Below, one piece after another: positions 5,857 through 36,598 of a DNA stretch of 46,292 bases (its first letter is position 1; each line of letters opens with the position of its first letter). The position numbers and the translations under genes were made by a program. This DNA comes from a virus. Location of the stretch: IMG/VR virus record IMGVR_UViG_3300031464_000003, one strand, 5' to 3'. The notes beneath the pieces were generated by a model that did no database searches, had not been told where the DNA came from, and saw only the letters and a program-made list of their open reading frames with translations.

Positions 5857-5919
5857 CTAGTGACCCAGTGATGGGGCCAGTCTGCGCTGGCCCCAAGGCT
5901 GGACCACCAGGTACGCTAG
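5857..5919 (-). repeat. CTAG-flanked extended intercistronic hairpin, family A
   Basis: CTAGTGACCCAGTGA-[tggggccag tctgcg ctggcccca]-AGGCTGGA...CGCTAG. The flanks match 5079-5131 but the inner stem has a different sequence. Confidence 0.8.
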
Positions 5920-5922
5920 AGC

Positions 5923-6366
5923 CTAGTCGTCCACGCCCTCCTCCTCCTCCTCCGCCTCTAGCCACTCCACAAGCGCCCGCACGGCGTCTCGGTAGGCGCC
6001 GTACAGGGCCACCGCAACCGCATCGTGGGCGTAGACCGTGGCGTACTCGTGGTTACCGAACTGAAAGGCGCTCGCGTCCATCTCCACCTCTTGTAGGTCT
6101 TGATGCCAGGCCGCCGCGATAAGCGCGTACTCCTGCGCCTGCTTGCGGAAGTAGGCGGGGATCAGGCCGTCGGCAAGCTCATGGATAGCCTCAGCGCGCC
6201 TAGCCGGATCTGTCAGCATTCCCGCCTCGATCGCTTCGGCCACCTGGTCACGAACGCTTTCAAGGATCTGGCGCCCCAGCTTGGTTTCAATATCCTCCTC
6301 AATGCCCAGTCCGGTGATTGCGTCAATCTGGCCAAGGGTCAGGCCACGAACCTTCGCAGCGTCCAT
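5923..6366 (-). CDS. Hypothetical acidic protein (147 aa)
   Basis: The leader GGGAATAGAGGGAGAGATCA precedes the ATG. The C-terminus is EEEEEGVDD. Confidence 0.6.
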   Translation of the reverse strand: MDAAKVRGLTLGQIDAITGLGIEEDIETKLGRQILESVRDQVAEAIEAGMLTDPARRAEAIHELADGLIPAYFRKQAQEYALIAAAWHQDLQEVEMDASAFQFGNHEYATVYAHDAVAVALYGAYRDAVRALVEWLEAEEEEEGVDD

Positions 6367-10435: not shown

Positions 10436-10611
10436 GCGAGCGACCGCCCTAGCGGGAGCGAGCGTAGGGGGGAACCAACAAAGATTCGCGTTGGGTGGGG
10501 TTTCTGCGGTTCTCGCTGGCGCTGATTCTGGCCCCTTTTCTGCGGTGTGCTAGGCGCCCCCTCACCCACCCCCCTAATTTTCCCCATGTTGTTCTCCCTG
10601 GAGTTTGGTCG

Positions 10612-12558: not shown

Positions 12559-14363
12559 TGGCACTGACTCCTAAGCAGGTTGTGGAGCGCGTGGAGTACA
12601 TGCGCGCCCGCGACGCTGAGCGGAACGCCGCCCAGGAAGATGTGCTGGCCGTCCGCGAGGGCCGCTGGAACGACGTCTCCTGTGCGATCGGCAAGTTCCC
12701 CGAGGATTGGCCGAAGCCGATCGTCAGCAACATGATCGACATCGCCGCCAAGGACTTCAGCGAGAACCTTGGCCCGCTGCCGACGTTCGAGTCGCGGCCC
12801 ACCAACATGGCCTCCGACGCGGCGAAGCGTTTCGCCGACAAGCTGACGAAGATCATCAACGGTCACGTCGAGGCCAGCAACCTCCAGGCCCAGATGTACG
12901 GGGCCGCCGACCGGCTCATCACCTACGGCTTCACCGCGTTCATCGTCGAGCCCGACTTCGAGGAGAAGACCCCGAAGATCCGCGCCGACGACAATTTCCG
13001 CGCCCACTATCAGCTTGACCGCTGGGGGCGCAGAACCCTCTACTACTGTCGGGTCTTCTGCCGCAACCTGGACGAGCTGGCGCGGGAGTTCCCGGAGGCG
13101 GCGGGCCAGCTCTACGCCCTCCGCCCGTACGGCGACAACCGCGACCACGAGGTCGAGGTCGCCTACTGGTACGACGACGACCAGCAGATGCTGGTCACCC
13201 TAGAGGATGCGATCGTCCTGTATCGGGTGGAGAACCCGATTGGCCGCTGCCCCGTCAGGGTCGTGGAGATGCCCAAGCTGGGCAAGACGGTCCGCGGCCA
13301 GTTCGACGACGCCATCCCTGTGCAGGTCGCCCGAGCGGTGACCCAGAACTTCATCGTCCAGGCGACCGAGGAGATCGTCAACGCGCCCCTCGTGGCCCCG
13401 CTGGATGTGCAGGAGGTTCCTTTCGGGCCGGGGGCGGTTATTCGCACCGAGAATCCGAACGGTGTCGCCAAGGTCCAGTTGGCAATCCCCGCGGGCCTTT
13501 TTGCCGAGCTTCAGAACCTGGCGCTGGAGCAGCGGCTCGCCCTCCGCTACCCGGAGGGCCGCTCCGGCAACATCGACGCCAGCATCATCACCGGCCAGGG
13601 TGTTGAGGCCCTCATGGGCACGTTCTCCTCGGTGGTGCAGACGGCCCAGTTGATGCTGGCTGCTGGTCTCCGGGACGTCATGTCGATGGTCCTGGAGATG
13701 GACGAGAAGCTGTTCGGCAACGTCCGCAAGACGGTCCGCGGCCGGTTGAGCGGCGCCCCCTACGAGGTCACCTACACCCCTGCCCGCGACATTCGCGGCA
13801 ACTACCACTGTGAGGTCACCTACGGGCTGACCGCGGGGCTGGACCCGAACCGGGCGCTGGTGTTCATCCTCCAGTCGCTGGGCGCCGGTGTGATCAGCCA
13901 CGACACCGCGATGCGCCACCTCCCGGTTGACATCAACGTCGAGGAAGAGAAGCGCCAGATCGACATCGAGTCTGTGCGGATGGCGCTCACCCAGGCGGTG
14001 GCCGGCTACGCCCAGGCGATCCCGATGATGGCCACCCAGGGCATGGACCCGGCGATGCCGGTGCTCCAGATCGCTGAGGTGATGCGGCTCCGCCAGGAAG
14101 GCAAGTCGATCGAGGAGGCGGTGCAGCAGGTGTTCGCCCCGCCGCCGCCCGAGCCCAGCGAAGAGGCCACCGCTGCGGGTGGCGCCGCCACCGAGTCGGA
14201 GATCTTCAACGAGCAAACAGGCCTTCCCGAGGGTATCGCCCCCGGCCAGGCCCAGTTCGGCCAGGGCGGGGCAGCAGACCTCCTGATGGCTCTCGTCGGT
14301 ACCACGCCATCAGGGGCGCCGAATTTGGCGCTGAACGTTAGCCGAAGGATTCCAGCGGCGTAA
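12558..14363 (+). CDS. Portal protein (by position and size)
   Basis: 601 aa. ATG overlaps the terL stop (TAATG). It lies immediately downstream of terL and has an acidic/Gly-Ala-rich C-terminal tail. Confidence 0.7.
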   Translation: MALTPKQVVERVEYMRARDAERNAAQEDVLAVREGRWNDVSCAIGKFPEDWPKPIVSNMIDIAAKDFSENLGPLPTFESRPTNMASDAAKRFADKLTKIINGHVEASNLQAQMYGAADRLITYGFTAFIVEPDFEEKTPKIRADDNFRAHYQLDRWGRRTLYYCRVFCRNLDELAREFPEAAGQLYALRPYGDNRDHEVEVAYWYDDDQQMLVTLEDAIVLYRVENPIGRCPVRVVEMPKLGKTVRGQFDDAIPVQVARAVTQNFIVQATEEIVNAPLVAPLDVQEVPFGPGAVIRTENPNGVAKVQLAIPAGLFAELQNLALEQRLALRYPEGRSGNIDASIITGQGVEALMGTFSSVVQTAQLMLAAGLRDVMSMVLEMDEKLFGNVRKTVRGRLSGAPYEVTYTPARDIRGNYHCEVTYGLTAGLDPNRALVFILQSLGAGVISHDTAMRHLPVDINVEEEKRQIDIESVRMALTQAVAGYAQAIPMMATQGMDPAMPVLQIAEVMRLRQEGKSIEEAVQQVFAPPPPEPSEEATAAGGAATESEIFNEQTGLPEGIAPGQAQFGQGGAADLLMALVGTTPSGAPNLALNVSRRIPAA

Positions 14364-14790: not shown

Positions 14791-15237
14791 ATGGCTGAGC
14801 GCGGCGGATACAGGGCGCCCCGCAACCCGGCGCCAGTGAGCGGGCCTGGCTCGCTGTCGCGTCGCACCGATGGCGGCCCTGGCGACCGGCAGCCGATCCG
14901 CCGCCTCCCGAACGCCAGGTACGGCGAGAGCCGAGAGTTTGAGTCCATCCAGGCTGGGGCTCCGCTGCCCGAGCGGCAGCAGCCGGAAGCCCCGCAGATG
15001 GACCGGTCGATGCTCATCCCATTCACCGCCGACTCGGCTCGCCCCGACGAGCCGGTCACCGCCGGCGCCGACGCTGGCGAAGGACCCGGCTCCGAAATCC
15101 TTGGCCTGCTTGGGAACCCGGACGCGAACATCGCCGCCATCGTCAAGTACCTGCCGCTGCTGGAGCACATGGCCAGCCGGCCCCACGCATCCCCCGAGAC
15201 GCGAGCGCTGATTCGACGGATAAAGGCACGGCTCTAA
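14791..15237 (+). CDS. Hypothetical virion-module protein (148 aa)
   Basis: ATG directly follows the upstream stop. TAATG overlap with the next gene. Confidence 0.55.
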   Translation: MAERGGYRAPRNPAPVSGPGSLSRRTDGGPGDRQPIRRLPNARYGESREFESIQAGAPLPERQQPEAPQMDRSMLIPFTADSARPDEPVTAGADAGEGPGSEILGLLGNPDANIAAIVKYLPLLEHMASRPHASPETRALIRRIKARL

Positions 15238-18200
15238 TGGGCTTCTGGTCTGAGATTTTCGACGCTGTAGCCAAGACCACCACGAGTACGCTCACGCTCG
15301 GGCCGCTTGCGCCTCTCGGCCTCATCCGGGACACCGCGGACATGGCGGCAGCCGAGGACCTGCCCGAGGACAGGAACGCCATTGTGCGCGCCGTTAACGC
15401 GGTGATGCATGGCGCTGGCGCAGCAGCAGGTGCTGTGGCCAAGGTGGCCACCGCGCCAGCCGAGTGGGCCACCCAGGAGGTTCTGGAGCCGGCGTACGAC
15501 TGGGTGACCTTCCAGCCGCGGCGGGCGATGGTGGCTGCCCGCCTGGCCCGCGCACGGGCCGTCGAGGCCGGCCACGAGCCTGGTGGCGTCCTTGAGTGGA
15601 CGCTGTTCTACGATCCCCAGACGTGGGAGGACGCCGCTGAGATCGCGGAGAACACCTCCCTTGGGCAGGCGTTCACCGAGCTGCTGGGCAGCTCCACGCT
15701 GGTGCGTGAGGACTCAGCCGTTTTCCATGCAACCGGCGCCGCGAACTTCGAGAATCGGTTTGCCCCGACCGAGGAAGAGATCCGTCGGCTGCGGGAGAGC
15801 CACCCCGGCTACAACATCACTTCTGGTGCGTTCGACTTCGCGGCCCGCTGGTATCTCGACCCGTTGATGATGGCCACCAAGGCGGGCCGGTTTGTTAGGC
15901 TGCGCAGAGTGCGCCCGATCCAGCCAGGCGAGGATATTGCCGCGGCATTCGAGCTTGAGGGCGCTGACGTGCCTGATGGCCGGCTTCGCCGCCTGTGGTA
16001 CAACTTTAGCCGCGGTGAAAACATCTACCAGCGGGTTAGCAAACTCTGGTCAGAAGAGACCAAGAGCTGGGGGCCTTTTGATTTCATCCTCGCATCGGAC
16101 GCGGTTGCCAAGTCGTCGAACCCGGTAGCGTTCGGCTGGGCGCTGGCTGAGGCTAACCAGTTCGAAGGCGCTGTGCGGGTCGAGACAATGAAGCTTGTAC
16201 TCCGCACCGCTCTCGGTGACGCCAAGGCTTTGGCGGAGTTGCGGGAGCGTCGGCCAGTGATTGCCGATGCGCTACTCGCCGCCCAGGACGACTTCGACGC
16301 CGCTAAGGCGGAGCTTTTGTACGAGCGTGGTCTGTCGAAGGACCCGCAGCTCCTCCTGTTCGACCAAAAGCTGCGCCCGCTTGTCGGCAATTTCGAGGAC
16401 AACCCCCTGGTCCGCAAGGTCCGCAGGCAGCGCTACAGGATGCTGAAGCAGCGTCTTGAGCAGGTCCAGCGGGAAGCGGATTTCAGGAGTGTGCTGGAGA
16501 AGGACGTCTTTGGCGTCGCTCGCGGCTCCGTGCCGACCATCAACAGGCGAGGCGCCAAGCGGATCGAGCGTAAGTTCCCGGTCGAGTTCGAGTACAGGGC
16601 GTCCCCGTGGAGCACTCCCGTCCGGTGGATCAGGTACGGCCGCGACGAGGTTGACTCGCTGCTCAACATGCGGGCGAACGGCTTCATCCACTTGGATGCG
16701 CCGGACTCCTACCGGGAGCTTGACGCCTACTTTACGCTGGCGAGGCGCCTCTTCAAGGACAACATAAGCCCTGAGGCTCACCGAGCGTTCCTCAACAGGT
16801 ACACGAAGGCCCGCACGCCAATTGAGCGGATGGCCGTCGTGGAAAAGGCCGAGCAGTACGCGCTCAAGCGGATCGCCGCTAACTACGGCATCCCGCAGGA
16901 GTTTGCGGTTGAGCTGTTTAAGCGGCTTCAGCAGGAGCGTAGCCGGCTTTTCGGCTCTAGGGAGCGCATCTACTCGGCCGCCCCGAGCCCGGACCCGCTT
17001 GACCCGATGGGCACCACCGCCGACATGGTGTACTCAGACGGCGCGTATGTTCATCTGCCGATCCTCTCTACCCAGCAGCCGAACATCGTACCGATGTCGG
17101 ATTTGGCCGAACTGAAGCGGCTGATGGACAAGGAGGCTGCGCGGGTTCGAGGACTGCTCCGCCAACTCCAGGAGCAGGGTGCCACGCTCAAGGAGGTCCT
17201 CGACGGCACAGTGGCCGGGACCGCCAAATACCGGGCGAGCCTGTCGGATTTGGTTTTTGAGACGCTCGACCGCTACAGCTCATTCTGGAAGCTCACCACG
17301 CTGCTCCGCCCCTCGTACCCGATGCGGAGCATCCTGGAGTCGAACCTGCGGTCATTCGCGAGCTTCCGTTCGGCGGCTCTGTTGGCGTGGCTGGAGGGCA
17401 CCAGAAACTTCGTCTCGAACCTTGCCAACCGCGGTAAGAACGGCCGTATCGTCGCGGAGCACATTTTCGAAGAGCGGATGCGGCTTGAGCTGCTGCGGGA
17501 CCAACTGGAGGTGCTTGAGGAGCAGTACGCCAAGGCGCCGAAGCGCAAGAAGAGAGAGCTTAAGGTTGAGGTAGAGCGCGCCCGCGGCTCCCTCAGGGAG
17601 CAGCAGGCGAAGGTTGAGCGCCTTAGCAAGGCGAAGACCAGCGAAATCATCGAGGAACTTGGCCTTAAAAAGGAGCTTGGCGCCAACCCATTCAAGGTTC
17701 CCGGTGGTGGCACCTTCGAGGGTCCGTTTGATTCGCCGGAAGGCGCGTTCCGCAAGACTCAAACCGCGGCCAACGGCATGTACTGGCGCCTCTACCTGAG
17801 TGGCCGAGGCGATGAACAAGCCCGCGGCGAGCTACTTCGCCGCATGGCGGAGCGCGGCGACGCGGTTGAACAATGGCGGGTCTTGATGAACTGGAGCGAC
17901 CCGAAGACCTATCTGCCATCGGACCGCGAGCACTCCGCGGTGTGGCAGCGGATTATCAACTTCCAGTTCCGCAATGACCCGCTGATTATGGGCAGTGGGA
18001 ACTTCCCTGGGCTGATCGGCGGCGCCACCACTGAGGAAGCGATTCGCTGGCTGCGCCTGACCCCTGAGGGGCAGGCGCATTGGCGGAGCATCCCGCCGCA
18101 GCATCGGCGTGACATAGAGCGGTTTGTCAACGGGGTCCGCTCTACAGTTGACTACTACCTGCCGACGCAGGATCTGCGGAACATCGTCCGTGATCGAGAG

Positions 18201-20183
18201 TTGACGCTCGGGGACATCGAGGCCCACAAGGCCGTTAGGGGCAATCCTGTCCCAATGGTGCATGGCCCCAGCGTTGAGGCGACACTTGGGCGGGGCAAGA
18301 CGCCAAACTTGTGGACCCGCACTATAGGAACGTGGCTTGATTACATCTCCTCGGGTCCGGAGACGAAGTTGGCACGCCACCCGCACTATGTGATCGCCTA
18401 CCGGGAGGCGGTGCGCAAGGAGATTGACTACCTCCTTAAGGATCCGAACCGGAAGCTCCTCGGGCTGGACGACAAGATTCTCATCGAGGAACTGGAGGGC
18501 CACATCAAGCAGCGCGCCCACCAGGCCGCGTTGAAAAACCTGAAAGAGACGCTGTATGACGCCTCTGAGCGGTCGAATGCTGCACACCTTCTGCGGTGGG
18601 CTTCCCCGTTCCTCGCCGCCCACCAGGACGCGCTGAGCGTGTGGTGGAGACTCGTCAAAGACGACCCGCGCCTGCTCGGCTGGGCAAACTTGCTGTGGAT
18701 GTTCCCAGCCAAGGCGGGCGTCGTCATCGACGAGGATGGCAACCTCGTCAAGGGACGCGACTACGCGGACACCGATAGGGTGATCCTGGCGCTACCGGCG
18801 TGGGCTGGTGGCCCCACCGAACGCGACCCCGACCGTGGGGTGTTCACGATCATGGACTCCCGGGCGACGATCAGCCTCGACACCATGAACGTGGTGTTTC
18901 CGGGCAGTCCCTGGTGGTCGCCGGGTGTCGGCCCCCTGGTGACGATCCCGCTCTCTTGGTACCGCAAGCAGCAGCCAGGGATCGACAAATACGTCTCCTG
19001 GATGGACCCCTACGGTCCTATCGAGGGTGGCGCGTTGGGCTACATTGAGGCTGCGTTCCTGCCCCCGTGGGCGCAGCGTGCCGCTGGCCTGATCCTCGGC
19101 AAAAACGACCACCAGTACGCCGGGTACGTCAACTGGATGTACATGACCGACCTGGCGGAGTGGCATCTGAACGGCCAGATTGGCCCCGAGCCGACGCCGG
19201 AGGAGGCGGCCGAAAAGGTCAATGTCCTTTACGGGCTGAAGATCGCGTCGCTGCTCGGCTCCCCGTTCCAGGTGAACTTCCAGTCCAAGTACCAGTTCGC
19301 CCAGGACGCCTACAATAACCTTCAGGACGAGGCGCAGCGTCGCGGCCTGGGCGAGGAATGGGTCTTCGAGCAGTTCCGCGAGAAGTACCACGACGCCCTG
19401 ATGTTGATGGCATCCGGCACCGGCAAAAACAACGCCGGACTGGTCACCTCTCCTGAGGCGATCGCCGCCAAGGAGAAGTACCAGCACATCATCAACAGCT
19501 ACAATCCACGGTTCGCCGCGGGCATCGTCGGCACCGAGGGTCAGATCGGCGAATGGAACCCCTCCGCGCAGGCCCGCGTCTACGAGGAGCCCATCGTCGA
19601 GGGCGGCTCCATCATGTGGCGTGAACGTCGCGGCACCGAAGAGGTGGTGCAAGCGAACTACGCCCGCATCGGATGGCACGACTACCGGCAGATCATGAAC
19701 CTCATCGAAGCCTATGCCGAGGAGCATGGGCTTAGGACTTACCGGGAGTCGCCCGCTCTTGTGCAGCTCCGTGCTGCTGTCATCGCAGAGTTGAAGGAGC
19801 AGAACCCTTATTGGTGGGAGGAATACGACTCGGGCCGCGAGAGCTTCGACCGGAACCTGTTGGAGATCGCCAAGATCGCTGAGGATAAGCGGTGGCTGGA
19901 CTACCCGGAGCGGAACGACATTGTGACGCTTCGGGAGTACCTGGCTCTCCGCCGCATGTTCGAGCAGCAATTGGAGGAGCGGCGGAGGGCCGGTGGCGAC
20001 AAGACCATGCAGGCCAAGTCCAATTCCGATCTGCGGAAACTGTGGACGCTTGCGGTCGGGGAGCTGGTCGAGCGGGACATTACATTCGCGGACTCCTGGT
20101 TTTACCGCTACCTGGAGTATGACCCCTGGCTGGATGACGCGCTTCTCGCAGAGGAGGTGACGACTAGTGGCGCAGGAGGATGA
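15237..20183 (+). CDS. Very large virion-module protein (1648 aa); possible internal/ejection protein, function unknown
   Basis: A single uninterrupted ORF between portal and capsid genes, with a hydrophobic N-terminus and long coiled-coil stretches. I recognised no motif. Confidence 0.6.
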   Translation: MGFWSEIFDAVAKTTTSTLTLGPLAPLGLIRDTADMAAAEDLPEDRNAIVRAVNAVMHGAGAAAGAVAKVATAPAEWATQEVLEPAYDWVTFQPRRAMVAARLARARAVEAGHEPGGVLEWTLFYDPQTWEDAAEIAENTSLGQAFTELLGSSTLVREDSAVFHATGAANFENRFAPTEEEIRRLRESHPGYNITSGAFDFAARWYLDPLMMATKAGRFVRLRRVRPIQPGEDIAAAFELEGADVPDGRLRRLWYNFSRGENIYQRVSKLWSEETKSWGPFDFILASDAVAKSSNPVAFGWALAEANQFEGAVRVETMKLVLRTALGDAKALAELRERRPVIADALLAAQDDFDAAKAELLYERGLSKDPQLLLFDQKLRPLVGNFEDNPLVRKVRRQRYRMLKQRLEQVQREADFRSVLEKDVFGVARGSVPTINRRGAKRIERKFPVEFEYRASPWSTPVRWIRYGRDEVDSLLNMRANGFIHLDAPDSYRELDAYFTLARRLFKDNISPEAHRAFLNRYTKARTPIERMAVVEKAEQYALKRIAANYGIPQEFAVELFKRLQQERSRLFGSRERIYSAAPSPDPLDPMGTTADMVYSDGAYVHLPILSTQQPNIVPMSDLAELKRLMDKEAARVRGLLRQLQEQGATLKEVLDGTVAGTAKYRASLSDLVFETLDRYSSFWKLTTLLRPSYPMRSILESNLRSFASFRSAALLAWLEGTRNFVSNLANRGKNGRIVAEHIFEERMRLELLRDQLEVLEEQYAKAPKRKKRELKVEVERARGSLREQQAKVERLSKAKTSEIIEELGLKKELGANPFKVPGGGTFEGPFDSPEGAFRKTQTAANGMYWRLYLSGRGDEQARGELLRRMAERGDAVEQWRVLMNWSDPKTYLPSDREHSAVWQRIINFQFRNDPLIMGSGNFPGLIGGATTEEAIRWLRLTPEGQAHWRSIPPQHRRDIERFVNGVRSTVDYYLPTQDLRNIVRDRELTLGDIEAHKAVRGNPVPMVHGPSVEATLGRGKTPNLWTRTIGTWLDYISSGPETKLARHPHYVIAYREAVRKEIDYLLKDPNRKLLGLDDKILIEELEGHIKQRAHQAALKNLKETLYDASERSNAAHLLRWASPFLAAHQDALSVWWRLVKDDPRLLGWANLLWMFPAKAGVVIDEDGNLVKGRDYADTDRVILALPAWAGGPTERDPDRGVFTIMDSRATISLDTMNVVFPGSPWWSPGVGPLVTIPLSWYRKQQPGIDKYVSWMDPYGPIEGGALGYIEAAFLPPWAQRAAGLILGKNDHQYAGYVNWMYMTDLAEWHLNGQIGPEPTPEEAAEKVNVLYGLKIASLLGSPFQVNFQSKYQFAQDAYNNLQDEAQRRGLGEEWVFEQFREKYHDALMLMASGTGKNNAGLVTSPEAIAAKEKYQHIINSYNPRFAAGIVGTEGQIGEWNPSAQARVYEEPIVEGGSIMWRERRGTEEVVQANYARIGWHDYRQIMNLIEAYAEEHGLRTYRESPALVQLRAAVIAELKEQNPYWWEEYDSGRESFDRNLLEIAKIAEDKRWLDYPERNDIVTLREYLALRRMFEQQLEERRRAGGDKTMQAKSNSDLRKLWTLAVGELVERDITFADSWFYRYLEYDPWLDDALLAEEVTTSGAGG

Positions 20184-24129: not shown

Positions 24130-24305
24130 TCTTCTCCATGGTCGTTGAGGACGAGCCACCAGGAGCCGGCTCGCTCAACGACGTTGACGCGGTAACGCGG
24201 AGCAAGGCGCCTTTCCCGGAGAAGCGCGGCATACATGTGCCAATCGGACATAGCGGCAGACTTCTCGTCCTTGTCGTAAGTGCGCAGCACCTGCATGCTG
24301 CGCAT
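24123..24305 (-). CDS. Reverse-oriented small protein (60 aa), accessory island
   Basis: SD GGGAGGG sits 7 nt before the ATG. G/C-rich third codon positions. Convergent with the virion operon, overlapping it by 7 nt. Confidence 0.4.
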   Translation of the reverse strand: MRSMQVLRTYDKDEKSAAMSDWHMYAALLRERRLAPRYRVNVVERAGSWWLVLNDHGEDQ

Positions 24306-24308
24306 AGT

Positions 24309-24378
24309 ACGCCCTCCCGTTGGCGTGGCAGCGGGTCTCCAAAACCTGGCTGGCGGGGTTCAAATCCTCGGGGGCGTG
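24309..24378 (+). tRNA. tRNA-Trp(CCA)-like with a compressed D-arm
   Basis: Acceptor ACGCCCT/GGGGCGT. Anticodon arm CGGGT-CTCCAAA-ACCTG. T arm CGGGG-TTCAAAT-CCTCG. Only 16 nt lie between the acceptor and anticodon stems. No encoded CCA. Confidence 0.55.
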
Positions 24379-24401
24379 CGGGAATAACCTAGCATCGGAT
24401 G

Positions 24402-24410
24402 TGGTATCAT
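24402..24410 (+). promoter_or_regulatory. Extended -10-like element TGgTATCAT
   Basis: Resembles the TGgTATAAT of the 10033 promoter. No convincing -35. It lies 19 nt upstream of the 24429 RNA-like element. Confidence 0.35.
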
Positions 24411-24505
24411 AGTTCCGAGGCAACGGTGGCCACCGTGGGTGGTCACAAGTCCTCCGCCCAGTCGGCCTGGGGTATGACCGGGAGGCTGGGCGGTGGCACC
24501 ATCAA

Positions 24506-24577
24506 GGTCCGTTCGTCTAGTGGTGAGGATGCCTCCCTGTCCAGGAGGAGGCGCGGGTTCGATTCCCGCACGGACCG
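24506..24577 (+). tRNA. tRNA-Asp(GTC) with an unusual anticodon loop (C37)
   Basis: Acceptor GGTCCGT/ACGGACC. D arm contains GG. Anticodon arm CCTCC-CTGTCCA-GGAGG. T arm GCGGG-TTCGATT-CCCGC. Discriminator G. No encoded CCA. Confidence 0.75.
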
Positions 24578-24603
24578 CGCACGCCGCACTAGCGTCGTGA
24601 AGT

Positions 24604-24642
24604 GAGCCCGGCAGCCGGCCGGACGGCCGGTGAGCCGGGCTC
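24604..24642. terminator. Bidirectional long hairpin between tRNA-Asp and the convergent moron
   Basis: gagcccggc / gccgggctc (9 bp) enclosing ccggcc/ggccgg. Confidence 0.55.
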
Positions 24643-24649
24643 GCGACTA

Positions 24650-25138
24650 TCAGGGGACGGCTAGCTCTGTCTTCTGTTCCGGACCAGCTTTGTTGCGGTC
24701 TGGGAACCACGTAATCTTCAACCGTTCCAACGGGTTGAACGCATTCGTCTTGAGGAAGAAGAGCGGGACCGAGCTTCCCGGCCCAACCTCATCAAGTTCG
24801 AGCCGGTTGCGGTCTTCCTTAAGCCACGTGTGTTCCAAGCGCACATGGTAAGCCGTGTCCCTGGCGCTTTGGTTGATGAGTTCGTACCTCATCCCGCCCA
24901 GATGGACAAGCTGCCATGTCACCTTATGGCGGCGTAGCTCCTCTTCGATGAGCTTGGTCCGCTGCTCCGACGCGGCTGCTGTGCGTTCCGCGATCTCGAT
25001 AGAGCGCTTCGAGTCTTTGCGGGTGCGCACACTCATCACAGTGTTGACCGCGGTTGAGAGGACGCCAAGGGCGCCACCGATGGCGCCCAGGTTGTCGATG
25101 AAAGCGTCCCAGACGTCACTGAGAAGGTCCAAAGCCAT
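24650..25138 (-). CDS. Reverse-oriented membrane-anchored protein (162 aa), moron candidate
   Basis: N-terminal TM helix GAIGGALGVLSTAVNTVM, then a coiled coil and a beta-rich C-terminal domain. Visibly lower G+C than its neighbours. Flanked by RNA genes. Confidence 0.6.
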   Translation of the reverse strand: MALDLLSDVWDAFIDNLGAIGGALGVLSTAVNTVMSVRTRKDSKRSIEIAERTAAASEQRTKLIEEELRRHKVTWQLVHLGGMRYELINQSARDTAYHVRLEHTWLKEDRNRLELDEVGPGSSVPLFFLKTNAFNPLERLKITWFPDRNKAGPEQKTELAVP

Positions 25139-25191
25139 GGAGCTTGATCCTAGCAGCTAGCTGTCCATGGCGGTTCACATCGGTACGCGCA

Positions 25192-25271
25192 GGGGCTGAG
25201 ACGGTTTCGACGGGGCGGTAGACCCGCACGCGGGTCCGCCCTGGATGAGGGTTCGACTCCCTCCAGCTCCA
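25192..25271 (+). ncRNA. tmRNA tRNA-like-domain-only RNA (SsrA-like, no mRNA-like domain)
   Basis: The 5' end GGGGCTGAGACGGTTTCGACGGG and the 3' end GGATGAGGGTTCGACTCCCTCCAGCTCCA match the conserved tmRNA termini. A 7-bp acceptor stem carries G3:U70 and A73. T arm is GAGGG-TTCGACT-CCCTC. The interior is a single capped helix. Confidence 0.7.
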
Positions 25272-25395
25272 CTCCTCACCCGGACCGACCGGCCCCGGGG
25301 AGCGTAGAAGACCGGTAGTGGGAGCCAAACGCGATTTCCTCCGGTCGCGTTTGAGGCCCGCGATTTCCTCTTTCGACGAAACGGAGAGTGTATTC

Positions 25396-25884
25396 ATGAC
25401 TCAGTACGACGACGACTTCGACTTCGACAACGAGAACGAGCAGCAGGACGACGGTAGCCTTCCTGCCCAGCTCCGGAAGAAGATCAAGGCCCTTCAGAAG
25501 GAATTGGATGCTGCGAACCGCGAGAAGCAGGAGGCGCTTTCGCAGTTGTCGAGGTTGAAGGCTCGCGACGTCCTGAGGGAACGCAAGGTCGAGGATCCTC
25601 GGGTCATCCGCTTCATGGAGAAGGATGGCGTCGACTTCTCGGATGAGAGCGCCATCGATAAGTGGCTTGAGGAGAACGGCGACCTTTTTGGATACCAGGC
25701 AGGCAAGGCGTCCCCGCAGGATGAGCAGATGCGTGAGGGGCTAGAGCGGATGGCTGCCGCCGAAGACAAGGGCGAGCCGTCGACCCGCTACAAGCAGCTC
25801 CTCGCGGAGATCCAGAACGCCAACTCTAAGGAGGAGTTGGACGCCATCTTGCAGCGGAACGCCGACATTAGAGTGTCGACGTAG
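25396..25884 (+). CDS. Scaffolding protein candidate (162 aa)
   Basis: SD GGAGAG 8 nt upstream. Acidic N-terminus (DDDFDFDNENEQQDD) and a coiled-coil body. Lies immediately upstream of the capsid gene. Confidence 0.6.
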   Translation: MTQYDDDFDFDNENEQQDDGSLPAQLRKKIKALQKELDAANREKQEALSQLSRLKARDVLRERKVEDPRVIRFMEKDGVDFSDESAIDKWLEENGDLFGYQAGKASPQDEQMREGLERMAAAEDKGEPSTRYKQLLAEIQNANSKEELDAILQRNADIRVST

Positions 25885-25892
25885 AGGAAGCG

Positions 25893-26840
25893 ATGGCCTT
25901 CGACGCAAACACGAACTACACCTCGGGCGGGTTTGGTCTTGGTGTAATCAAGGCCGCCTACGACCGGTATTTTGAGCTGGCCCTCCGGCACGCCCCGATC
26001 CTGCGTGACATCGCGGACAAGCGGCCGGTGCAGGTTGACAAGCCTGGCGACTCGGTGACCTTGAGCATCCACAAGGATCTCCCTGTGGTGACCGGCACCC
26101 TGACGGAGAACGCGGACGTCACCCCGGCGACGCTGCCGCCGCCGACGCCCGTGACGATCGTGCTCAAGGAGCGCGGTAACGCTGTCGTCACGCACAAGCT
26201 GCTCCGCGAGTACGCGATGACGGACGTCGACCCCTACGTGGCGAACCAGGTCGCGTATAACATGCGGGACTCGCTGGACTACCAGTTCCAGCAGGAGCTG
26301 ATCGGCGGCAGCAACGTCCGCTACGCGGGCGCCGCGACCTCCACCGCGACGGTCACCGACAATGACGTCATCACCTCCGATGACGTGCGGGTGATTGTCA
26401 CCAAGCTGCGTGGCGCCGCGGCGGTGCCTCGCCGGGACGACCTGTACGGCTGCTGGATCCACCCGGATGTGGCCTTCGACCTGAAGAAGGAGACCGGGCA
26501 GGCGGCGTGGCGTGGTCCCCACGAGTACACCGCCCCGGATGCGATTTGGCGCCACGTCGTGGGCGTGTACGAGGGCGCGTACTTCATTGAGTCCGCCCGC
26601 ATGCACAACGACACCGACGGGGAGAGTGGTGCCCGGGTTTACCGGACGATCTTCGCCGGCCAACAGGCGATGGCTGAGGCTGTGGCGATCGAGCCTCACC
26701 TTGTCATGGACGGCAAGGTCGGCCAGGACCTGCTGAGCCGCCTGTACACGATCGGCTGGTACGGCGTGCTCGGCTGGGCTCGCTACCGCGAGGCCGCGCT
26801 GTGGCGGCTGGAGTCCGGGTCGACGATCAACGCAGCCTGA
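25893..26840 (+). CDS. Major capsid protein (by position and size)
   Basis: 315 aa. It follows the scaffold-like gene and is followed by a strong terminator, as expected for the most highly expressed late gene. Confidence 0.7.
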   Translation: MAFDANTNYTSGGFGLGVIKAAYDRYFELALRHAPILRDIADKRPVQVDKPGDSVTLSIHKDLPVVTGTLTENADVTPATLPPPTPVTIVLKERGNAVVTHKLLREYAMTDVDPYVANQVAYNMRDSLDYQFQQELIGGSNVRYAGAATSTATVTDNDVITSDDVRVIVTKLRGAAAVPRRDDLYGCWIHPDVAFDLKKETGQAAWRGPHEYTAPDAIWRHVVGVYEGAYFIESARMHNDTDGESGARVYRTIFAGQQAMAEAVAIEPHLVMDGKVGQDLLSRLYTIGWYGVLGWARYREAALWRLESGSTINAA

Positions 26841-35118: not shown

Positions 35119-35349
35119 CTAGGCGATAGGAATCTCGTCCAGGTCCTCGTATACCCGGAAGCGCTTCCGAGGCTCTGAGGCGGCGTCTAGCGCCTTCCAG
35201 AGGGCCTTGAGTGGCTTCGCGTGCTCTGGGCAGAGCAGGGGGCGCCGCCGCTCGCCATCGGGGTCCACGAGGCTCCATTTCTTGAGGCCCCGCGACTCGC
35301 CGCATCCGCGGACGTCGCAGACGACCCGACGCTCAACGATCACCGCCAT
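35119..35349 (-). CDS. Hypothetical protein downstream of int (76 aa); RDF/Xis role possible but unsupported
   Basis: SD GAGGG 4 nt upstream. Overlaps the int 3' end by 17 nt. Contains C-x4-C ... C-x2-H. Confidence 0.5.
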   Translation of the reverse strand: MAVIVERRVVCDVRGCGESRGLKKWSLVDPDGERRRPLLCPEHAKPLKALWKALDAASEPRKRFRVYEDLDEIPIA

Positions 35350-36598
35350 ACGCCCTCAACTCCACTACGTTCTTGGCTCGGAGGCTCGGGTACATGTAGC
35401 GCCCCCGCATCAGCAGGTCGCGGTCCAGCCGGTCTGGCTCACATCCAATGTAGTGCTCGGTCATCATCTGGGTCTTGTGGTGGAGGGCGGCCTGGACGGG
35501 GCGTATGGGGTGGGCCACCGGCCGGACTACCCTGCCGGTGGCCGGGTCCATCCACGGCTCCATCGCCTGTAGCTCGTCATACCAGGCCCGAGCGCCCGAC
35601 CGCCGCAGGGTGTGCATACCCTCACCCTTGAGGGTCCCCTCCGGGGAATCATCGACCGGGAAGTCGATCTTCCTCAGCGCAGCCTTGGCGACCTTCTCCA
35701 GGTGGGTCCGTAGAGGCTGCGACGGGTCTAGCTGGGGGCGGGGAACCGGACCAGGCTGAATGAACCTGGACCCCGGGGGCCGCACGCCCACTCGCTTCCT
35801 CTTGTGGGGGATCAGCGGCCACTCGGGCCGAAGCGGCTCGCCGACGTCCCAGGTATAGAACTCCAGCCACTCGCGTAGCTCCTCGTCCAGCTCCTTCGGG
35901 ATGGGCATCAGGTCATCCTTCTTGGTCTTCTGAACCCGGACGAGGATGGAGCCGCCTTTGAGATCCAACCGCCCAATGGTCAGGGTGGCCATCTCGCTCT
36001 GGCGGAGGAACAGGTAGAGCCCGAGAGCGATCATGATCCGGTCCCGCTTGTGCTCCTGCTCGGCTGCGTCCAACAGCCGCGGGAAGTCGGAGACGTGGAC
36101 GCGCTTGCGCTCCCGCTCGAACGGCTCGAACGCCTCGATGTCCCACATCGGGTCGGAGTCCGGCGGCATCAGCCGGGACCTGCGGCACCACTTGAAGAAG
36201 GTGTTCAGGACCGACCGGTGAACGTTCAGCGATGACGCCTGACGGGTGCGGCCGGCCTCCGCGAAGAAGTTGATCACATGCCGCTCGTCGATGTTCTTGA
36301 CGAGGAGGTTCCCGGTAGTGCTGAGGAACCTATTGAGAGTCTGGGTGTGGTTCTTGATCGTGTTAGGCTGCCGCCTCTTGACTCTCATCGAGGCCAGGTA
36401 CTGGTCGATCGCCCAGCTCAACCGGCCTGGGCTCTCCCCAACTCTGGATGCCACAACCGCCTCCTTTAGGTAGGACTTCGCGGCAATAGTAGCATCCGGC
36501 GTTGACCTGCGGTGCACCAGGAGATCCTCGGACCGCATGATTGTCGAGGAAGTCCTTCTACCGGACGCGACCTGCCGCTTTGCAGACGACCCGGGCAT
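35333..36598 (-). CDS. int: Tyrosine integrase
   Basis: Catalytic signature in order: LFLRQSE (Arg), HTLRRSGA (His-x-x-Arg), HHKTQMMTEHY (His ... Tyr). N-terminal SAM-like core-binding region. Start uncertain (ATG 36598 or 36538). Confidence 0.9.
   Translation of the reverse strand: MPGSSAKRQVASGRRTSSTIMRSEDLLVHRRSTPDATIAAKSYLKEAVVASRVGESPGRLSWAIDQYLASMRVKRRQPNTIKNHTQTLNRFLSTTGNLLVKNIDERHVINFFAEAGRTRQASSLNVHRSVLNTFFKWCRRSRLMPPDSDPMWDIEAFEPFERERKRVHVSDFPRLLDAAEQEHKRDRIMIALGLYLFLRQSEMATLTIGRLDLKGGSILVRVQKTKKDDLMPIPKELDEELREWLEFYTWDVGEPLRPEWPLIPHKRKRVGVRPPGSRFIQPGPVPRPQLDPSQPLRTHLEKVAKAALRKIDFPVDDSPEGTLKGEGMHTLRRSGARAWYDELQAMEPWMDPATGRVVRPVAHPIRPVQAALHHKTQMMTEHYIGCEPDRLDRDLLMRGRYMYPSLRAKNVVELRAYGGDR

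What the first reader, a model, noticed from the sequence alone, without database searches (positions are those of the whole stretch)
25192..25271. A tmRNA reduced to its tRNA-like domain: 80-nt SsrA-like RNA gene with no tag reading frame
Seen:
- nt 25192-25214 (GGGGCTGAGACGGTTTCGACGGG) reproduce the conserved 5' end of bacterial tmRNA. From memory, E. coli is GGGGCUGAUUCUGGAUUCGACGGG and mycobacteria are GGGGCUGAACGGUUUCGAC.
- nt 25243-25271 (GGATGAGGGTTCGACTCCCTCCAGCTCCA) reproduce the 3' end (...GGACGCGGGUUCAACUCCCGCCAGCUCCA).
- The two ends pair into a 7-bp acceptor stem carrying G3:U70 and discriminator A, which is the alanine identity set. A 5-bp T stem and a TTCGACT loop follow.
- Only about 35 nt separate the D-loop analogue from the T arm. 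They form one helix (25213-25217 with 25237-25241) capped by GACCCG-CACG-CGGGTC. There is no resume codon, tag ORF or pseudoknot.

Established: the tRNA-like domain is what AlaRS, SmpB and EF-Tu recognise, while tagging needs the mRNA-like domain. Full-length tmRNAs occur in some large phages. Domain-only ssrA is known from jakobid mitochondria. I know of no described phage TLD-only RNA.

Inference: a phage-made alanyl-TLD could titrate SmpB or enter stalled ribosomes without tagging. That would block or rewire host trans-translation, as a takeover or anti-defence function.
Basis: partly seen in the sequence, partly recalled or inferred. Interest (0 to 1): 0.88.

Follow-up and report, generated by a model that had tools for sequence, protein, structure and literature searches.

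The report
Phage tmRNA lacking its tag template
This temperate phage carries a real 80-nt gene for a transfer-messenger RNA cut down to its tRNA-like half; the type was already reported in mycobacteriophage DS6A and shown to block the bacterial ribosome-rescue system, so this is a new member of a known, poorly annotated kind.

Summary
Window 25192-25271 (+) hits Rfam tmRNA at 65 bits (threshold 47, E 3e-23) with both termini matched and 294 internal model positions deleted. ARAGORN finds no tag.

It is not a scar or chance match. A pattern scan and my own covariance model recovered 51 distinct ~80-nt relatives, nearly all on viral contigs. They share the same layout, with compensatory changes in the acceptor, T and P2 helices. 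G1-C72, G2-C71, G3:U70 and discriminator A are invariant.

Cultured phages with unannotated copies include Streptomyces phages Shaeky, BRock and LuckySocke, Stenotrophomonas phage Jojan60 and mycobacteriophage DS6A.

DS6A's "TLD only" tmRNA was reported in 2009 and 2014, and is reported to inhibit host tmRNA in E. coli, perhaps by titrating SmpB.

Most likely mechanism (inferred): host enzymes process the RNA and add CCA, AlaRS charges it, SmpB binds it, and it competes with host tmRNA, so stalled ribosomes are not tagged.

The invariant alanine identity set suggests charging matters, which goes beyond a passive SmpB sponge.

Verdict: real, a new member of a known kind, moderate interest.

The parts
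25192..25198 (+). Acceptor stem, 5' strand (GGGGCTG); G3 of the G3:U70 pair is at 25194
   Evidence: Pairs 7/7 with 25264-25270. Pairs 1-3 are invariant and pairs 4-7 covary across 44-51 distinct relatives.
25199..25202 (+). Linker AGAC (3-5 nt in relatives, usually GAW)
   Evidence: Structure-anchored alignment.
25203..25210 (+). D-loop analogue GGTTTCGA, the tmRNA-specific conserved 5' motif
   Evidence: Matches the Rfam tmRNA consensus GGaUUCGAC. It was fixed by my search pattern, so its conservation in the family set is not independent evidence.
25211..25218 (+). P2 helix, 5' strand (CGGGGCGG)
   Evidence: Pairs with 25236-25243. 6 of 8 P2 pairs (manual alignment) or 6 of 7 (model alignment) show compensatory changes in the family.
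25219..25221 (+). Internal loop TAG (purine/A-rich loop in relatives: TAAA, GAAA)
   Evidence: A stop triplet here is not universal in the family, so it is not a conserved stop codon.
25222..25235 (+). Inner hairpin ACCCG-CACG-CGGGT capping P2
   Evidence: CCGCAYGCGG or a close variant is present in 21 of 51 distinct relatives, including DS6A. Same-phage variants L088, L089 and L091 carry A25222G, which keeps the pair (A:U to G:U).
25236..25243 (+). P2 helix, 3' strand (CCGCCCTG)
25243..25246 (+). GGAT, the counterpart of the tmRNA-conserved GGAC preceding the T arm
   Evidence: GGA is present in 43 of 44 relatives although my pattern did not constrain it. It matches the Rfam consensus GGAC.
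25247..25263 (+). T arm: stem GAGGG/CCCTC with 7-nt loop TTCGACT
   Evidence: 100% canonical pairing, with compensatory changes at the three outer pairs in the family.
25264..25271 (+). Acceptor stem 3' strand CAGCTCC (U70 at 25268) plus discriminator A (25271); no encoded CCA (next bases are CTC)
   Evidence: The window's own tRNA genes also lack an encoded CCA.
24309..24578 (+). Context: tRNA-Trp (24309-24379) and tRNA-Asp (24506-24578), same strand, about 600 nt upstream
   Evidence: ARAGORN. In Beephvirinae relatives the syntenic site holds 21-23 tRNA genes.
24650..25138 (-). Context: divergent 162-aa ORF of unknown function; its start lies 53 nt from the RNA gene
   Evidence: Called as a gene in independent assemblies. 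No Pfam or PHROG family.
25396..26840 (+). Context: downstream scaffold-like gene (25396-25884, phrog_7813) and major head protein gene (25893-26840)

Best explanation
Window 25192-25271 is a phage gene for a tmRNA that consists only of the tRNA-like domain (TLD). It belongs to the same family as the 'TLD only' tmRNA of mycobacteriophage DS6A.

Proposed mechanism:
1. The RNA is transcribed within or next to the phage's tRNA locus.
2. Host tRNA-processing enzymes trim it, and the host CCA-adding enzyme adds CCA.
3. Host alanyl-tRNA synthetase charges it with alanine through G3:U70, G2:C71 and A73.
4. Host SmpB binds it at the conserved GGUUUCGAC/GGA elbow, and EF-Tu binds as well.
5. With no mRNA-like domain it cannot template a degradation tag. 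It therefore competes with host tmRNA for SmpB and for stalled ribosomes.
6. Host trans-translation, meaning tagging and normal rescue, is blocked or bypassed during infection.

Shown here: the RNA's identity, its conserved structure, its family membership and its phage specificity. Taken from literature on related molecules: inhibition of tmRNA, ribosome entry and peptidyl transfer by TLD-only constructs. Inferred: expression, charging and the effect in this phage's host.
For: Identity:
- Rfam tmRNA at 65 bits, above the gathering score of 47, with both termini matched and 294 model positions deleted.
- No tag found by ARAGORN.

Conserved function:
- A scan of IMG/VR with a pattern that only short forms can match gave 79 contigs.
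- Of 45 unique sequences, 44 are TLD-only elements (the 45th, L019, is an ordinary tRNA). All 44 have a 7/7 acceptor stem, G3:U70 and discriminator A.
- The acceptor and T stems are 100% canonical, with compensatory changes at every variable pair. P2 is 90% canonical.
- On the model-based alignment of 51 distinct sequences, 94.8% of cells are paired against 68.3% in shuffles (0/500) and 37-52% with slid partners. 17 of 22 pairs show double changes.

Same family as DS6A: my model hits JN698994 28478-28557 at 52.6 bits, and that element has the same A-rich loop and CCGCACGCGG hairpin.

Phage-specific: 72 of 84 viral-set matches are genuine against 2 of 81 bacterial-genome hits, both on tiny MAG contigs.

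tRNA-like biogenesis: the element lies inside or beside same-strand tRNA arrays in Shaeky, Jojan60 and at least 12 viral contigs.

Not a substitute for tRNA-Ala: those arrays also carry a tRNA-Ala.

Host factors are needed: no SmpB, Pth, ArfB, RtcB or CCA-adding enzyme was found among 66 window ORFs, and no protein gene recurs beside the element across lineages.

Constraint within this phage: there is 1 pair-preserving change in 80 nt, against 6 changes in the adjacent 53-nt spacer.

Literature:
- The DS6A-type molecule strongly inhibits tmRNA in E. coli, perhaps by titrating SmpB (PMC4131195; PMC11915505).
- A TLD-only tmRNA accepts the peptide in vitro (PMC3895274).
- A truncated tmRNA with SmpB and EF-Tu binds the ribosome (PMC8363625).
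Against: - There is no expression evidence for this element. No sigma-70-type promoter or intrinsic terminator was found nearby, although such scans are weak for high-GC hosts.
- The host is unknown, because the window is a metagenome contig. Host SmpB and AlaRS compatibility is therefore assumed.
- The reported inhibition did not require chargeability. The strict conservation of the alanine identity set is thus not explained by simple SmpB titration, and may point to a different ribosome-level function (see rivals).
- Why a phage would benefit from blocking ribosome rescue is not established.
- The window's closest cultured relatives (Beephvirinae) lack the element, so it is not essential to that phage type.
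- I could not read the primary paper, Mao et al. 2009.
Confidence: 0.55

Rival explanations
1. Tag-free rescue helper. The charged TLD-SmpB complex enters stalled ribosomes and accepts the nascent chain. The peptidyl-TLD is then released by drop-off and peptidyl-tRNA hydrolase, or by a release-factor-like route. This frees ribosomes for phage translation without marking proteins for degradation. In this reading the RNA adds rescue capacity instead of blocking it.
For: - G1-C72, G2-C71, G3:U70 and A73 are invariant in 51 of 51 distinct sequences while pairs 4-7 vary freely. This argues that charging is under selection, which a passive sponge would not need.
- The element is frequently embedded in large tRNA arrays of phages that import translation capacity.
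- Peptidyl transfer to a TLD-only tmRNA occurs in vitro.
- CDS-less tmRNAs in jakobid mitochondria and some plastids are thought to still help with incomplete mRNAs.
Against: - A similar molecule inhibits rather than complements tmRNA function when expressed in E. coli.
- No release mechanism for a peptidyl-TLD is known.
- The window phage encodes no Pth- or ArfB-like protein.
Confidence: 0.22
2. Player in phage-defence conflict rather than in translation itself. The RNA would act as a decoy or antagonist for host systems that recognise or cleave tRNA or tmRNA, or that use SmpB-like RNA-binding domains. Alternatively it would modulate SmpB/tmRNA-dependent RNase R.
For: - CoCoNuT Type IV restriction systems carry SmpB-like OB-fold domains predicted to bind tmRNA, and RtcB's most frequent bacterial target is reported to be SsrA (PMC11090510).
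- DS6A encodes an RtcB-like ligase.
- A staphylococcal phage anti-CRISPR uses tRNA and tmRNA fragments, and tmRNA-SmpB regulates RNase R (PMC11662646).
- The element is strongly phage-restricted.
Against: - All of this is circumstantial. No defence or anti-defence gene is consistently linked to the element.
- The window phage has no RtcB.
- The strict retention of every tmRNA TLD feature is explained more simply by use of the normal SmpB, AlaRS and EF-Tu partners.
Confidence: 0.1
3. Non-functional remnant. The element would be a recombination scar joining the two ends of a host ssrA, a decayed full-length phage tmRNA, or an attP-associated ssrA fragment.
For: - Phages do integrate into ssrA and can carry ssrA fragments.
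- The window phage has an integrase at 35333-36598.
- The host ssrA could not be obtained for a direct comparison.
Against: - The central module (P2, A/purine loop, CCGCAYGCGG-type hairpin) and the total length are shared with dozens of unrelated phage contigs and with DS6A. This is an inherited architecture, not a fresh junction.
- Covariation is strong in all helices.
- The 5' half is not needed for attP, and the integrase is about 10 kb away.
- The element also occurs in large phage contigs inside tRNA arrays.
- Only one substitution, pair-preserving, is seen among variants of this phage, while the neighbouring spacer has six.
Confidence: 0.03
4. A degenerate or unusual tRNA-Ala (an acceptor/T-arm minihelix) that is unrelated to tmRNA.
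For: It shares the G3:U70/A73 alanine identity set. Phage tRNA-Ala genes give weak hits to my model, at 26-29 bits.
Against: - Rfam's clan competition assigns the element to tmRNA at 65 bits, not to tRNA.
- ARAGORN calls no tRNA there.
- The tmRNA-specific GGUUUCGAC and GGA motifs are present.
- Carriers also have a normal tRNA-Ala.
Confidence: 0.02

Closest known systems
TLD-only (CDS-less) tmRNA of mycobacteriophage DS6A (tmRNA Website tmID 11587 / Phage__Mycobacterium.9; Mao et al. 2009; Hudson, Lau & Williams 2014)
   Same: - Both are phage-encoded, about 80 nt, with both tmRNA termini forming a complete tRNA-like domain and no tag frame.
- Both have a P2 helix capped by an A-rich loop and a CCGCACGCGG hairpin.
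- Both have G3:U70 and discriminator A.
- DS6A scores 52.6 bits and the window 73.2 bits on the same model.
- Both phages are temperate with high-GC genomes.
   Different: - The two elements are clearly diverged in sequence. No member of the set is more than 74% identical to the window element.
- DS6A has a divergent D-loop analogue (GGUGGUCGAC).
- The genomic sites differ. In DS6A the element lies between gp33 and a DNA polymerase III gene, with no tRNA genes annotated. In the window it lies between a tRNA pair and the scaffold and capsid genes.
- The phages are unrelated.
- Rfam's tmRNA model detects the window copy at its threshold but not the DS6A copy.
Canonical bacterial tmRNA (SsrA; Rfam RF00023)
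   Same: The acceptor stem with the alanine identity set, the D-loop analogue GGUUUCGAC, GGA(C), the T arm and the start of helix P2 are all present. The element passes Rfam's gathering score.
   Different: It lacks the whole mRNA-like domain (resume codon, tag ORF, stop) and all pseudoknots, which amounts to 294 of 374 model positions. It therefore cannot tag proteins.
CDS-less organellar tmRNAs (jakobid mitochondria, Rfam RF02544; ~65-bp forms in Mallomonadaceae plastids)
   Same: These are also tmRNAs reduced to the tRNA-like domain without a tag frame.
   Different: They are organellar, not viral. They are the cell's only tmRNA and work with a cognate SmpB. The phage RNA coexists and competes with a full-length host tmRNA. 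Sequence relatedness was not resolvable here, because Rfam keeps only the best clan hit, RF00023.
Full-length phage tmRNAs (e.g. Bxz1-like mycobacteriophages, ~131-kb Streptomyces phages such as Jay2Jay, Bacillus phage G)
   Same: They are phage-encoded ssrA homologues, often near tRNA genes. Their 3' ends match the window element over about 30 nt.
   Different: They retain a tag frame, for example ANSKFAFALAA* as annotated, and can perform complete trans-translation.
Engineered TLD-only tmRNA fragments used in biochemistry and crystallography (Shimizu & Ueda 2006; Neubauer et al. 2012)
   Same: The design is the same: a tRNA-like domain with P2 closed by a short hairpin. These fragments bind SmpB and EF-Tu, enter stalled ribosomes and accept the peptide.
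   Different: They are laboratory constructs derived from bacterial tmRNAs. The window RNA is a natural gene that has evolved with its own conserved cap.

Membership tests
tmRNA (Rfam RF00023), canonical | tRNA-like domain: 7-bp acceptor stem with G3:U70 and discriminator A, T arm, D-loop analogue | tested here: met
   Score is 65 bits against a gathering score of 47.
tmRNA (Rfam RF00023), canonical | mRNA-like domain with resume codon, tag reading frame and stop codon | tested here: not met
   Only 32 nt lie between the D-loop analogue and GGAT, all in one capped helix. 294 model positions are deleted. ARAGORN finds no tmRNA or tag.
tmRNA (Rfam RF00023), canonical | Pseudoknots PK1-PK4 | tested here: not met
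   There is no sequence available for them.
tmRNA (Rfam RF00023), canonical | Alanylation by AlaRS; binding by SmpB and EF-Tu | not testable with these tools
   Only the sequence determinants are present and invariant across the family.
Phage TLD-only tmRNA (DS6A type) | Both tmRNA termini joined by a short capped helix, with no tag frame, about 65-82 nt | tested here: met
Phage TLD-only tmRNA (DS6A type) | Homology to the DS6A element | tested here: met
   One covariance model, built without either sequence, hits both the window (73.2 bits) and DS6A JN698994 28478-28557 (52.6 bits). They share an A-rich loop and a CCGCACGCGG hairpin.
Phage TLD-only tmRNA (DS6A type) | Encoded by a phage genome | tested here: met
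   Terminase, portal, major head protein and integrase genes are in the window. The capsid is 43% identical to those of Streptomyces phages.
Phage TLD-only tmRNA (DS6A type) | Structure maintained by selection (compensatory changes) | tested here: met
   94.8% paired, 17 of 22 pairs with double changes, 0 of 500 shuffles as high.
Phage TLD-only tmRNA (DS6A type) | Inhibits host tmRNA function when expressed | not testable with these tools
   Reported for the DS6A-type molecule in E. coli. The primary paper is not held.
Mitochondrial tmRNA (Rfam RF02544) | Best match to the mt-tmRNA model; organellar location | tested here: inconclusive
   All Rfam families were searched. RF00023 is the best clan member, and lower-scoring clan hits are suppressed. 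The location is a phage genome, not an organelle.
tRNA-Ala | Anticodon arm with an alanine anticodon; recognised by tRNA detectors | tested here: not met
   No ARAGORN tRNA call at 25192-25271. Rfam assigns the element to tmRNA, not tRNA.

The most novel reading that the evidence does not exclude
The window RNA belongs to a widespread and largely uncatalogued phage family. I found at least 51 distinct sequences, including unannotated copies in cultured Streptomyces, Stenotrophomonas and Mycobacterium phages. The absolutely invariant alanine identity set implies that the RNA must be aminoacylated to work. On this reading it is not a passive SmpB sponge. It would be a phage-run, tag-free acceptor on stalled ribosomes: a viral rewiring of ribosome rescue that spares phage proteins from ssrA-directed proteolysis, or that releases ribosomes during host RNA-cleaving defence.
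Probability: 0.3. Interest if true: 0.7.

Novelty: new member of a known kind. Interest (0 to 1): 0.4.

Why it matters
Trans-translation is the main bacterial ribosome-rescue pathway, and it is an antibiotic target. Phage interference with it is barely studied.

This element is one more natural example of a tmRNA stripped to its tRNA-like domain.

The comparative work done to evaluate it shows that such genes are not a DS6A oddity:
- They form a conserved, phage-restricted family that standard tools mostly miss. ARAGORN called none of them correctly as a short form, and Rfam detects them inconsistently.
- GenBank records leave them unannotated or place them under 'hypothetical protein'.

Several carriers are cultured phages of tractable hosts, such as Streptomyces lividans, so the function is directly testable. 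The central question is whether the RNA is an inhibitor or a tag-free rescuer, and whether charging is required.

For genome annotation, the practical lesson is that gaps in phage tRNA arrays may hold these RNAs.

Tried and rejected
- **Close relatives by DNA.** Megablast of 24200-25400 against GenBank phages found no match. The phage has no close cultured relative, so comparison relied on distant blastn, pattern scans and covariance models.
- **MAFFT alignment of family members**. It misaligned the 5' acceptor strand because the linker length varies. I replaced it with a structure-anchored alignment and a model-based alignment.
- **Syntenic locus in Beephvirinae relatives** (FlowerPower, Kumquat). 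They have only tRNA arrays there and no TLD. tRNA-Ala gives weak hits of 26-29 bits.
- **Variant pattern GGATTCGACG**. It gave only 10 viral contigs, of which six score as family members with the model.
- **Conserved protein partner.** None recurs across lineages.
- **Conserved stop codon in the internal loop** (a zero-length tag). Rejected, because many members have no stop triplet there.
- **Promoter and terminator scan.** Nothing was found near the element.
- **Primary papers.** Mao et al. 2009 and Jacob et al. 2004 are not held. Their content is cited only through papers that describe them.
- **ARAGORN's 324-nt 'tmRNA' in L023.** Rejected as a mis-call built on a TLD-only gene.
Full report
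**1. The observation**

GGGGCTGAGACGGTTTCGACGGG begins at 25192, and the element ends ...GGTTCGACTCCCTCCAGCTCCA at 25271.

A search of the whole window against all 4227 Rfam families gives a tmRNA (RF00023) match at 25192-25274 (+). It scores 65.0 bits against a gathering score of 47, E 3.3e-23. The match runs from model position 1 to 374, with 294 internal positions deleted (repeated).

ARAGORN finds tRNA-Trp (24309-24379) and tRNA-Asp (24506-24578) but no tmRNA and no tag peptide.

The tRNA-like fold has these parts:
- a 7-bp acceptor stem
- a 4-nt linker
- the D-loop analogue GGTTTCGA
- an 8-bp P2 helix (25211-25218 with 25236-25243)
- a TAG loop
- the hairpin ACCCG-CACG-CGGGT
- GGAT
- a 5-bp T stem with a TTCGACT loop
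- discriminator A

This fold evaluates to -42.4 kcal/mol, within 1 kcal/mol of the unconstrained MFE of -43.4.

**2. Genomic setting**

The window is a complete-looking phage genome of 46.3 kb and about 64% GC. It encodes a large terminase (10495-12558), a portal protein (12552-14363), a major head protein (25893-26840) and an integrase (35333-36598, minus strand). It also encodes a GntR-type regulator and a primase.

It is a JGI metagenome contig (3300033752, Ga0373396_000914). The same phage was assembled independently from several other samples.

It has no close cultured relative. Its capsid protein is about 43% identical to those of Streptomyces phages of the Beephvirinae, such as FlowerPower, Zeigle and Kumquat.

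The RNA gene lies in a 257-nt intergenic gap. On one side is a divergent 162-aa ORF of unknown function (24650-25138, minus strand). On the other is a scaffold-like gene (25396-25884) that precedes the capsid gene. Gene callers place no gene over the element.

In FlowerPower and Kumquat, the syntenic site between a conserved hypothetical gene and the scaffold-like/capsid pair holds 21-23 tRNA genes and no TLD. The window RNA therefore sits in what is ancestrally a tRNA locus.

The window's two tRNA genes, like the TLD, lack an encoded CCA. No sigma-70 consensus promoter or intrinsic terminator was detected nearby, which says little for a high-GC host.

**3. Relatives and conservation**

A sensitive blastn search found two cultured phages with the same ~80-nt layout: Streptomyces phage Shaeky, in an unannotated gap of its tRNA array, and Stenotrophomonas phage Jojan60, just downstream of four tRNAs. 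Both pass Rfam's tmRNA threshold, at 59.3 and 61.8 bits.

I then scanned IMG/VR with GGTTTCGACG-N{22,50}-GGTTCGANTCC, a pattern that full-length tmRNAs cannot match. It returned 79 contigs.

Across the 84 matches held at that point (79 IMG/VR loci plus Shaeky, Jojan60 and the window), 72 have a paired acceptor stem. These collapse to 45 unique sequences, of which 44 are TLD-only elements; the 45th (L019) is an ordinary tRNA. All 44 have 7/7 acceptor pairs, G3:U70 and discriminator A. The pattern constrained none of these features.

Results on a structure-anchored alignment:
- The acceptor stem is 100% canonical. Pairs 1-3 are invariant (G-C, G-C, G-U) and pairs 4-7 each show three to six pair types.
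- The T stem is 100% canonical, with compensatory changes at its three outer pairs.
- P2 is 90% canonical, with compensatory changes at 6 of 8 pairs.
- Pairing falls to 52-70% when the 3' strands are shuffled among sequences.

I built a covariance model from 21 cleanly alignable sequences, excluding the window. It scores the window element at 73.2 bits. It recovers 80 hits and 51 distinct sequences across the viral loci.

Results on that model-based alignment:
- 94.8% of cells are paired, against 68.3% in shuffles (0 of 500 as high) and 37-52% when partners are slid by 1-3 columns.
- 17 of 22 pairs show changes on both sides.
- G1-C72, G2-C71 and G3:U70 are present in 51 of 51 sequences.

The central segment is 28-32 nt in 40 of 44 sequences. 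A CCGCAYGCGG-type cap recurs in 21 of 51. No member of the set is more than 74% identical to the window element, so it is a divergent member.

Among variants of the same phage, the 80-nt gene carries a single substitution. This is A25222G, which converts an A:U pair in the inner hairpin to G:U. The 53-nt spacer just upstream carries six substitutions.

**4. Phage specificity and context**

Of the 81 hits returned, only 2 have a TLD, and both lie on 3-6 kb MAG contigs. The rest are chance matches with no acceptor stem. In the viral set, 72 of 84 matches are genuine, so the family is strongly phage-associated.

The element lies inside or next to same-strand tRNA arrays in Shaeky, Jojan60 and at least 12 viral contigs. 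Those arrays also contain a normal tRNA-Ala.

Using other family members as queries finds unannotated copies in Streptomyces phages LuckySocke, GiJojo, pSt2308, BRock and Alone3.

No protein gene recurs beside the element across lineages. The window's 66 ORFs of 90 aa or more include no SmpB, peptidyl-tRNA hydrolase, ArfB, RtcB or CCA-adding enzyme. The RNA must therefore work with host factors.

**5. Prior knowledge**

- Hudson, Lau & Williams (2014, PMC4131195) list 'Mycobacterium phage DS6A (TLD only)'. [quoted passage not shown] It also reports CDS-less tmRNAs in jakobid mitochondria and Mallomonadaceae plastids.

My model locates the DS6A element at JN698994 28478-28557, where it is unannotated. 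It has the same A-rich loop and CCGCACGCGG hairpin as the window and many others. The window RNA is therefore a member of the DS6A family, not a new kind.

In the held literature I found no description of the family beyond DS6A.

Detection by standard tools is patchy. ARAGORN called none of the elements as such in 48 loci, and mis-built one 324-nt 'tmRNA'. Rfam's tmRNA model misses the DS6A and L034 copies at its threshold.

**6. Mechanism**

What the sequence shows directly:
- The determinants for AlaRS are present and invariant: G3:U70 as the major determinant, with G2:C71 and A73. Their role is established tRNA-Ala identity knowledge.
- The tmRNA-specific elbow motifs GGUUUCGAC and GGA are present.
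- An EF-Tu-compatible acceptor/T-arm is present.
- There is nothing that could serve as a template.

What the literature on related molecules shows:
- TLD-only constructs bind SmpB and EF-Tu on the ribosome (Neubauer 2012, as cited in PMC8363625).
- They accept the nascent peptide (Shimizu & Ueda 2006, as cited in PMC3895274).
- A DS6A-type molecule inhibits tmRNA in vivo.

I infer that the window RNA is processed like the neighbouring tRNAs, has CCA added, and is charged and bound by SmpB. It then competes with host tmRNA, so that stalled ribosomes are not tagged.

The family analysis adds one new point. The reported inhibition did not need chargeability, yet nature keeps the alanine identity set invariant while the rest of the acceptor stem drifts. 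That argues that charging, and therefore ribosome entry, is part of the natural function. It leaves open the rival that the RNA provides tag-free rescue instead of blocking rescue.

A defence-related role is possible but purely circumstantial. The leads are defence systems with SmpB-like domains, RtcB acting on SsrA, and tmRNA fragments used by an anti-CRISPR.

The family-wide conserved architecture and covariation effectively exclude a scar, a pseudogene or an attP fragment. The integrase lying 10 kb away and the presence of the 5' half also argue against those readings.

**7. Verdict**

The feature is real and correctly read as a tmRNA reduced to its tRNA-like domain. It is a new, divergent member of a known kind, the DS6A-type phage TLD-only tmRNA. 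The functional idea was already published and partly tested.

Interest is moderate, at 0.4. A tmRNA specialist would not be surprised by one more example. The breadth, the conservation and the poor annotation of the family are still worth reporting, as are the availability of cultured Streptomyces carriers and the unresolved question of whether charging is needed.

Noticed in passing
L023 6093-6154 (-) (IMGVR_UViG_3300025873_000023): A Pistol self-cleaving ribozyme (RF02679, 51.9 bits against a gathering score of 34.5) lies about 105 nt upstream of that contig's TLD-only tmRNA (5905-5987) on the same strand. It could define the 5' end of the transcript.
   Followed up: partly
L023 5905-6228 (-): ARAGORN reports a 324-nt 'tmRNA' with the atypical tag AWDYNPMWVQCSA*. 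Its 3' end is the 80-nt TLD-only gene that Rfam scores at 81 bits, so the long call looks like a mis-assembly of halves.
   Followed up: partly
window 25330-25341 and 25359-25370: There is a perfect 12-nt direct repeat, CGCGATTTCCTC, spaced 29 nt apart between the RNA gene and the scaffold-like gene. This 124-nt spacer has no substitutions in diverged variants of the phage, while the 53-nt spacer upstream of the RNA has six. It may be a regulatory site for the late or capsid operon.
   Followed up: partly
L082 28478-28557 (DS6A, JN698994) and L034 3414-3492: Rfam's tmRNA model at its gathering threshold does not report these two TLD-only genes, although my family model scores them at 52.6 and 83.7 bits. 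ARAGORN called none of the elements as such in 48 loci. This class is largely invisible to standard annotation.
   Followed up: yes
GenBank ON045087 (Jojan60; L002 2382-2522) and PP725410 (GiJojo, gene 44): Annotated 'hypothetical protein' CDSs overlap the TLD-only RNA genes. In Shaeky, LuckySocke, pSt2308, BRock and Alone3 the site is simply unannotated. The CDS calls are probably mis-annotations.
   Followed up: partly
L084 1263-3334 (FlowerPower) and L085 1317-3330 (Kumquat), against window 24309-25271: The Beephvirinae relatives carry 21-23 tRNA genes at the site where the window phage has only tRNA-Trp, tRNA-Asp, a reverse-strand ORF and the TLD. This looks like large-scale loss or replacement of a tRNA array.
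   Followed up: partly
L009, L010, L027, L057, L076 and L080 lineage (e.g. L076 5290-5368): In this unrelated phage lineage the TLD gene sits between a prohead-protease-like ORF and the major capsid gene, about 200 nt upstream of the capsid gene. This echoes its position upstream of the scaffold and capsid genes in the window, and may point to late, high-level expression.
   Followed up: no
window 15237-20183 (+): A 1648-aa ORF between the portal gene and the tail/lysin genes has no significant Pfam family. The only hit is a weak sub-threshold one to DrmE_C.
   Followed up: no
L082 49300 to L083 502 (DS6A gp76): DS6A, the founding carrier of a TLD-only tmRNA, also encodes an RtcB-like RNA ligase. 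RtcB's most frequent bacterial substrate is reported to be SsrA (PMC11090510). The window phage has no RtcB.
   Followed up: partly
L038 13732-13974 (also L016, L039): Three tandem ~90-nt repeat units matched the search pattern by chance and have no acceptor stem. Separately, a conserved non-TLD sequence is shared by L015, L063, L066, L071, L077 and Stenotrophomonas maltophilia L127. Both are false positives of unknown nature.
   Followed up: no
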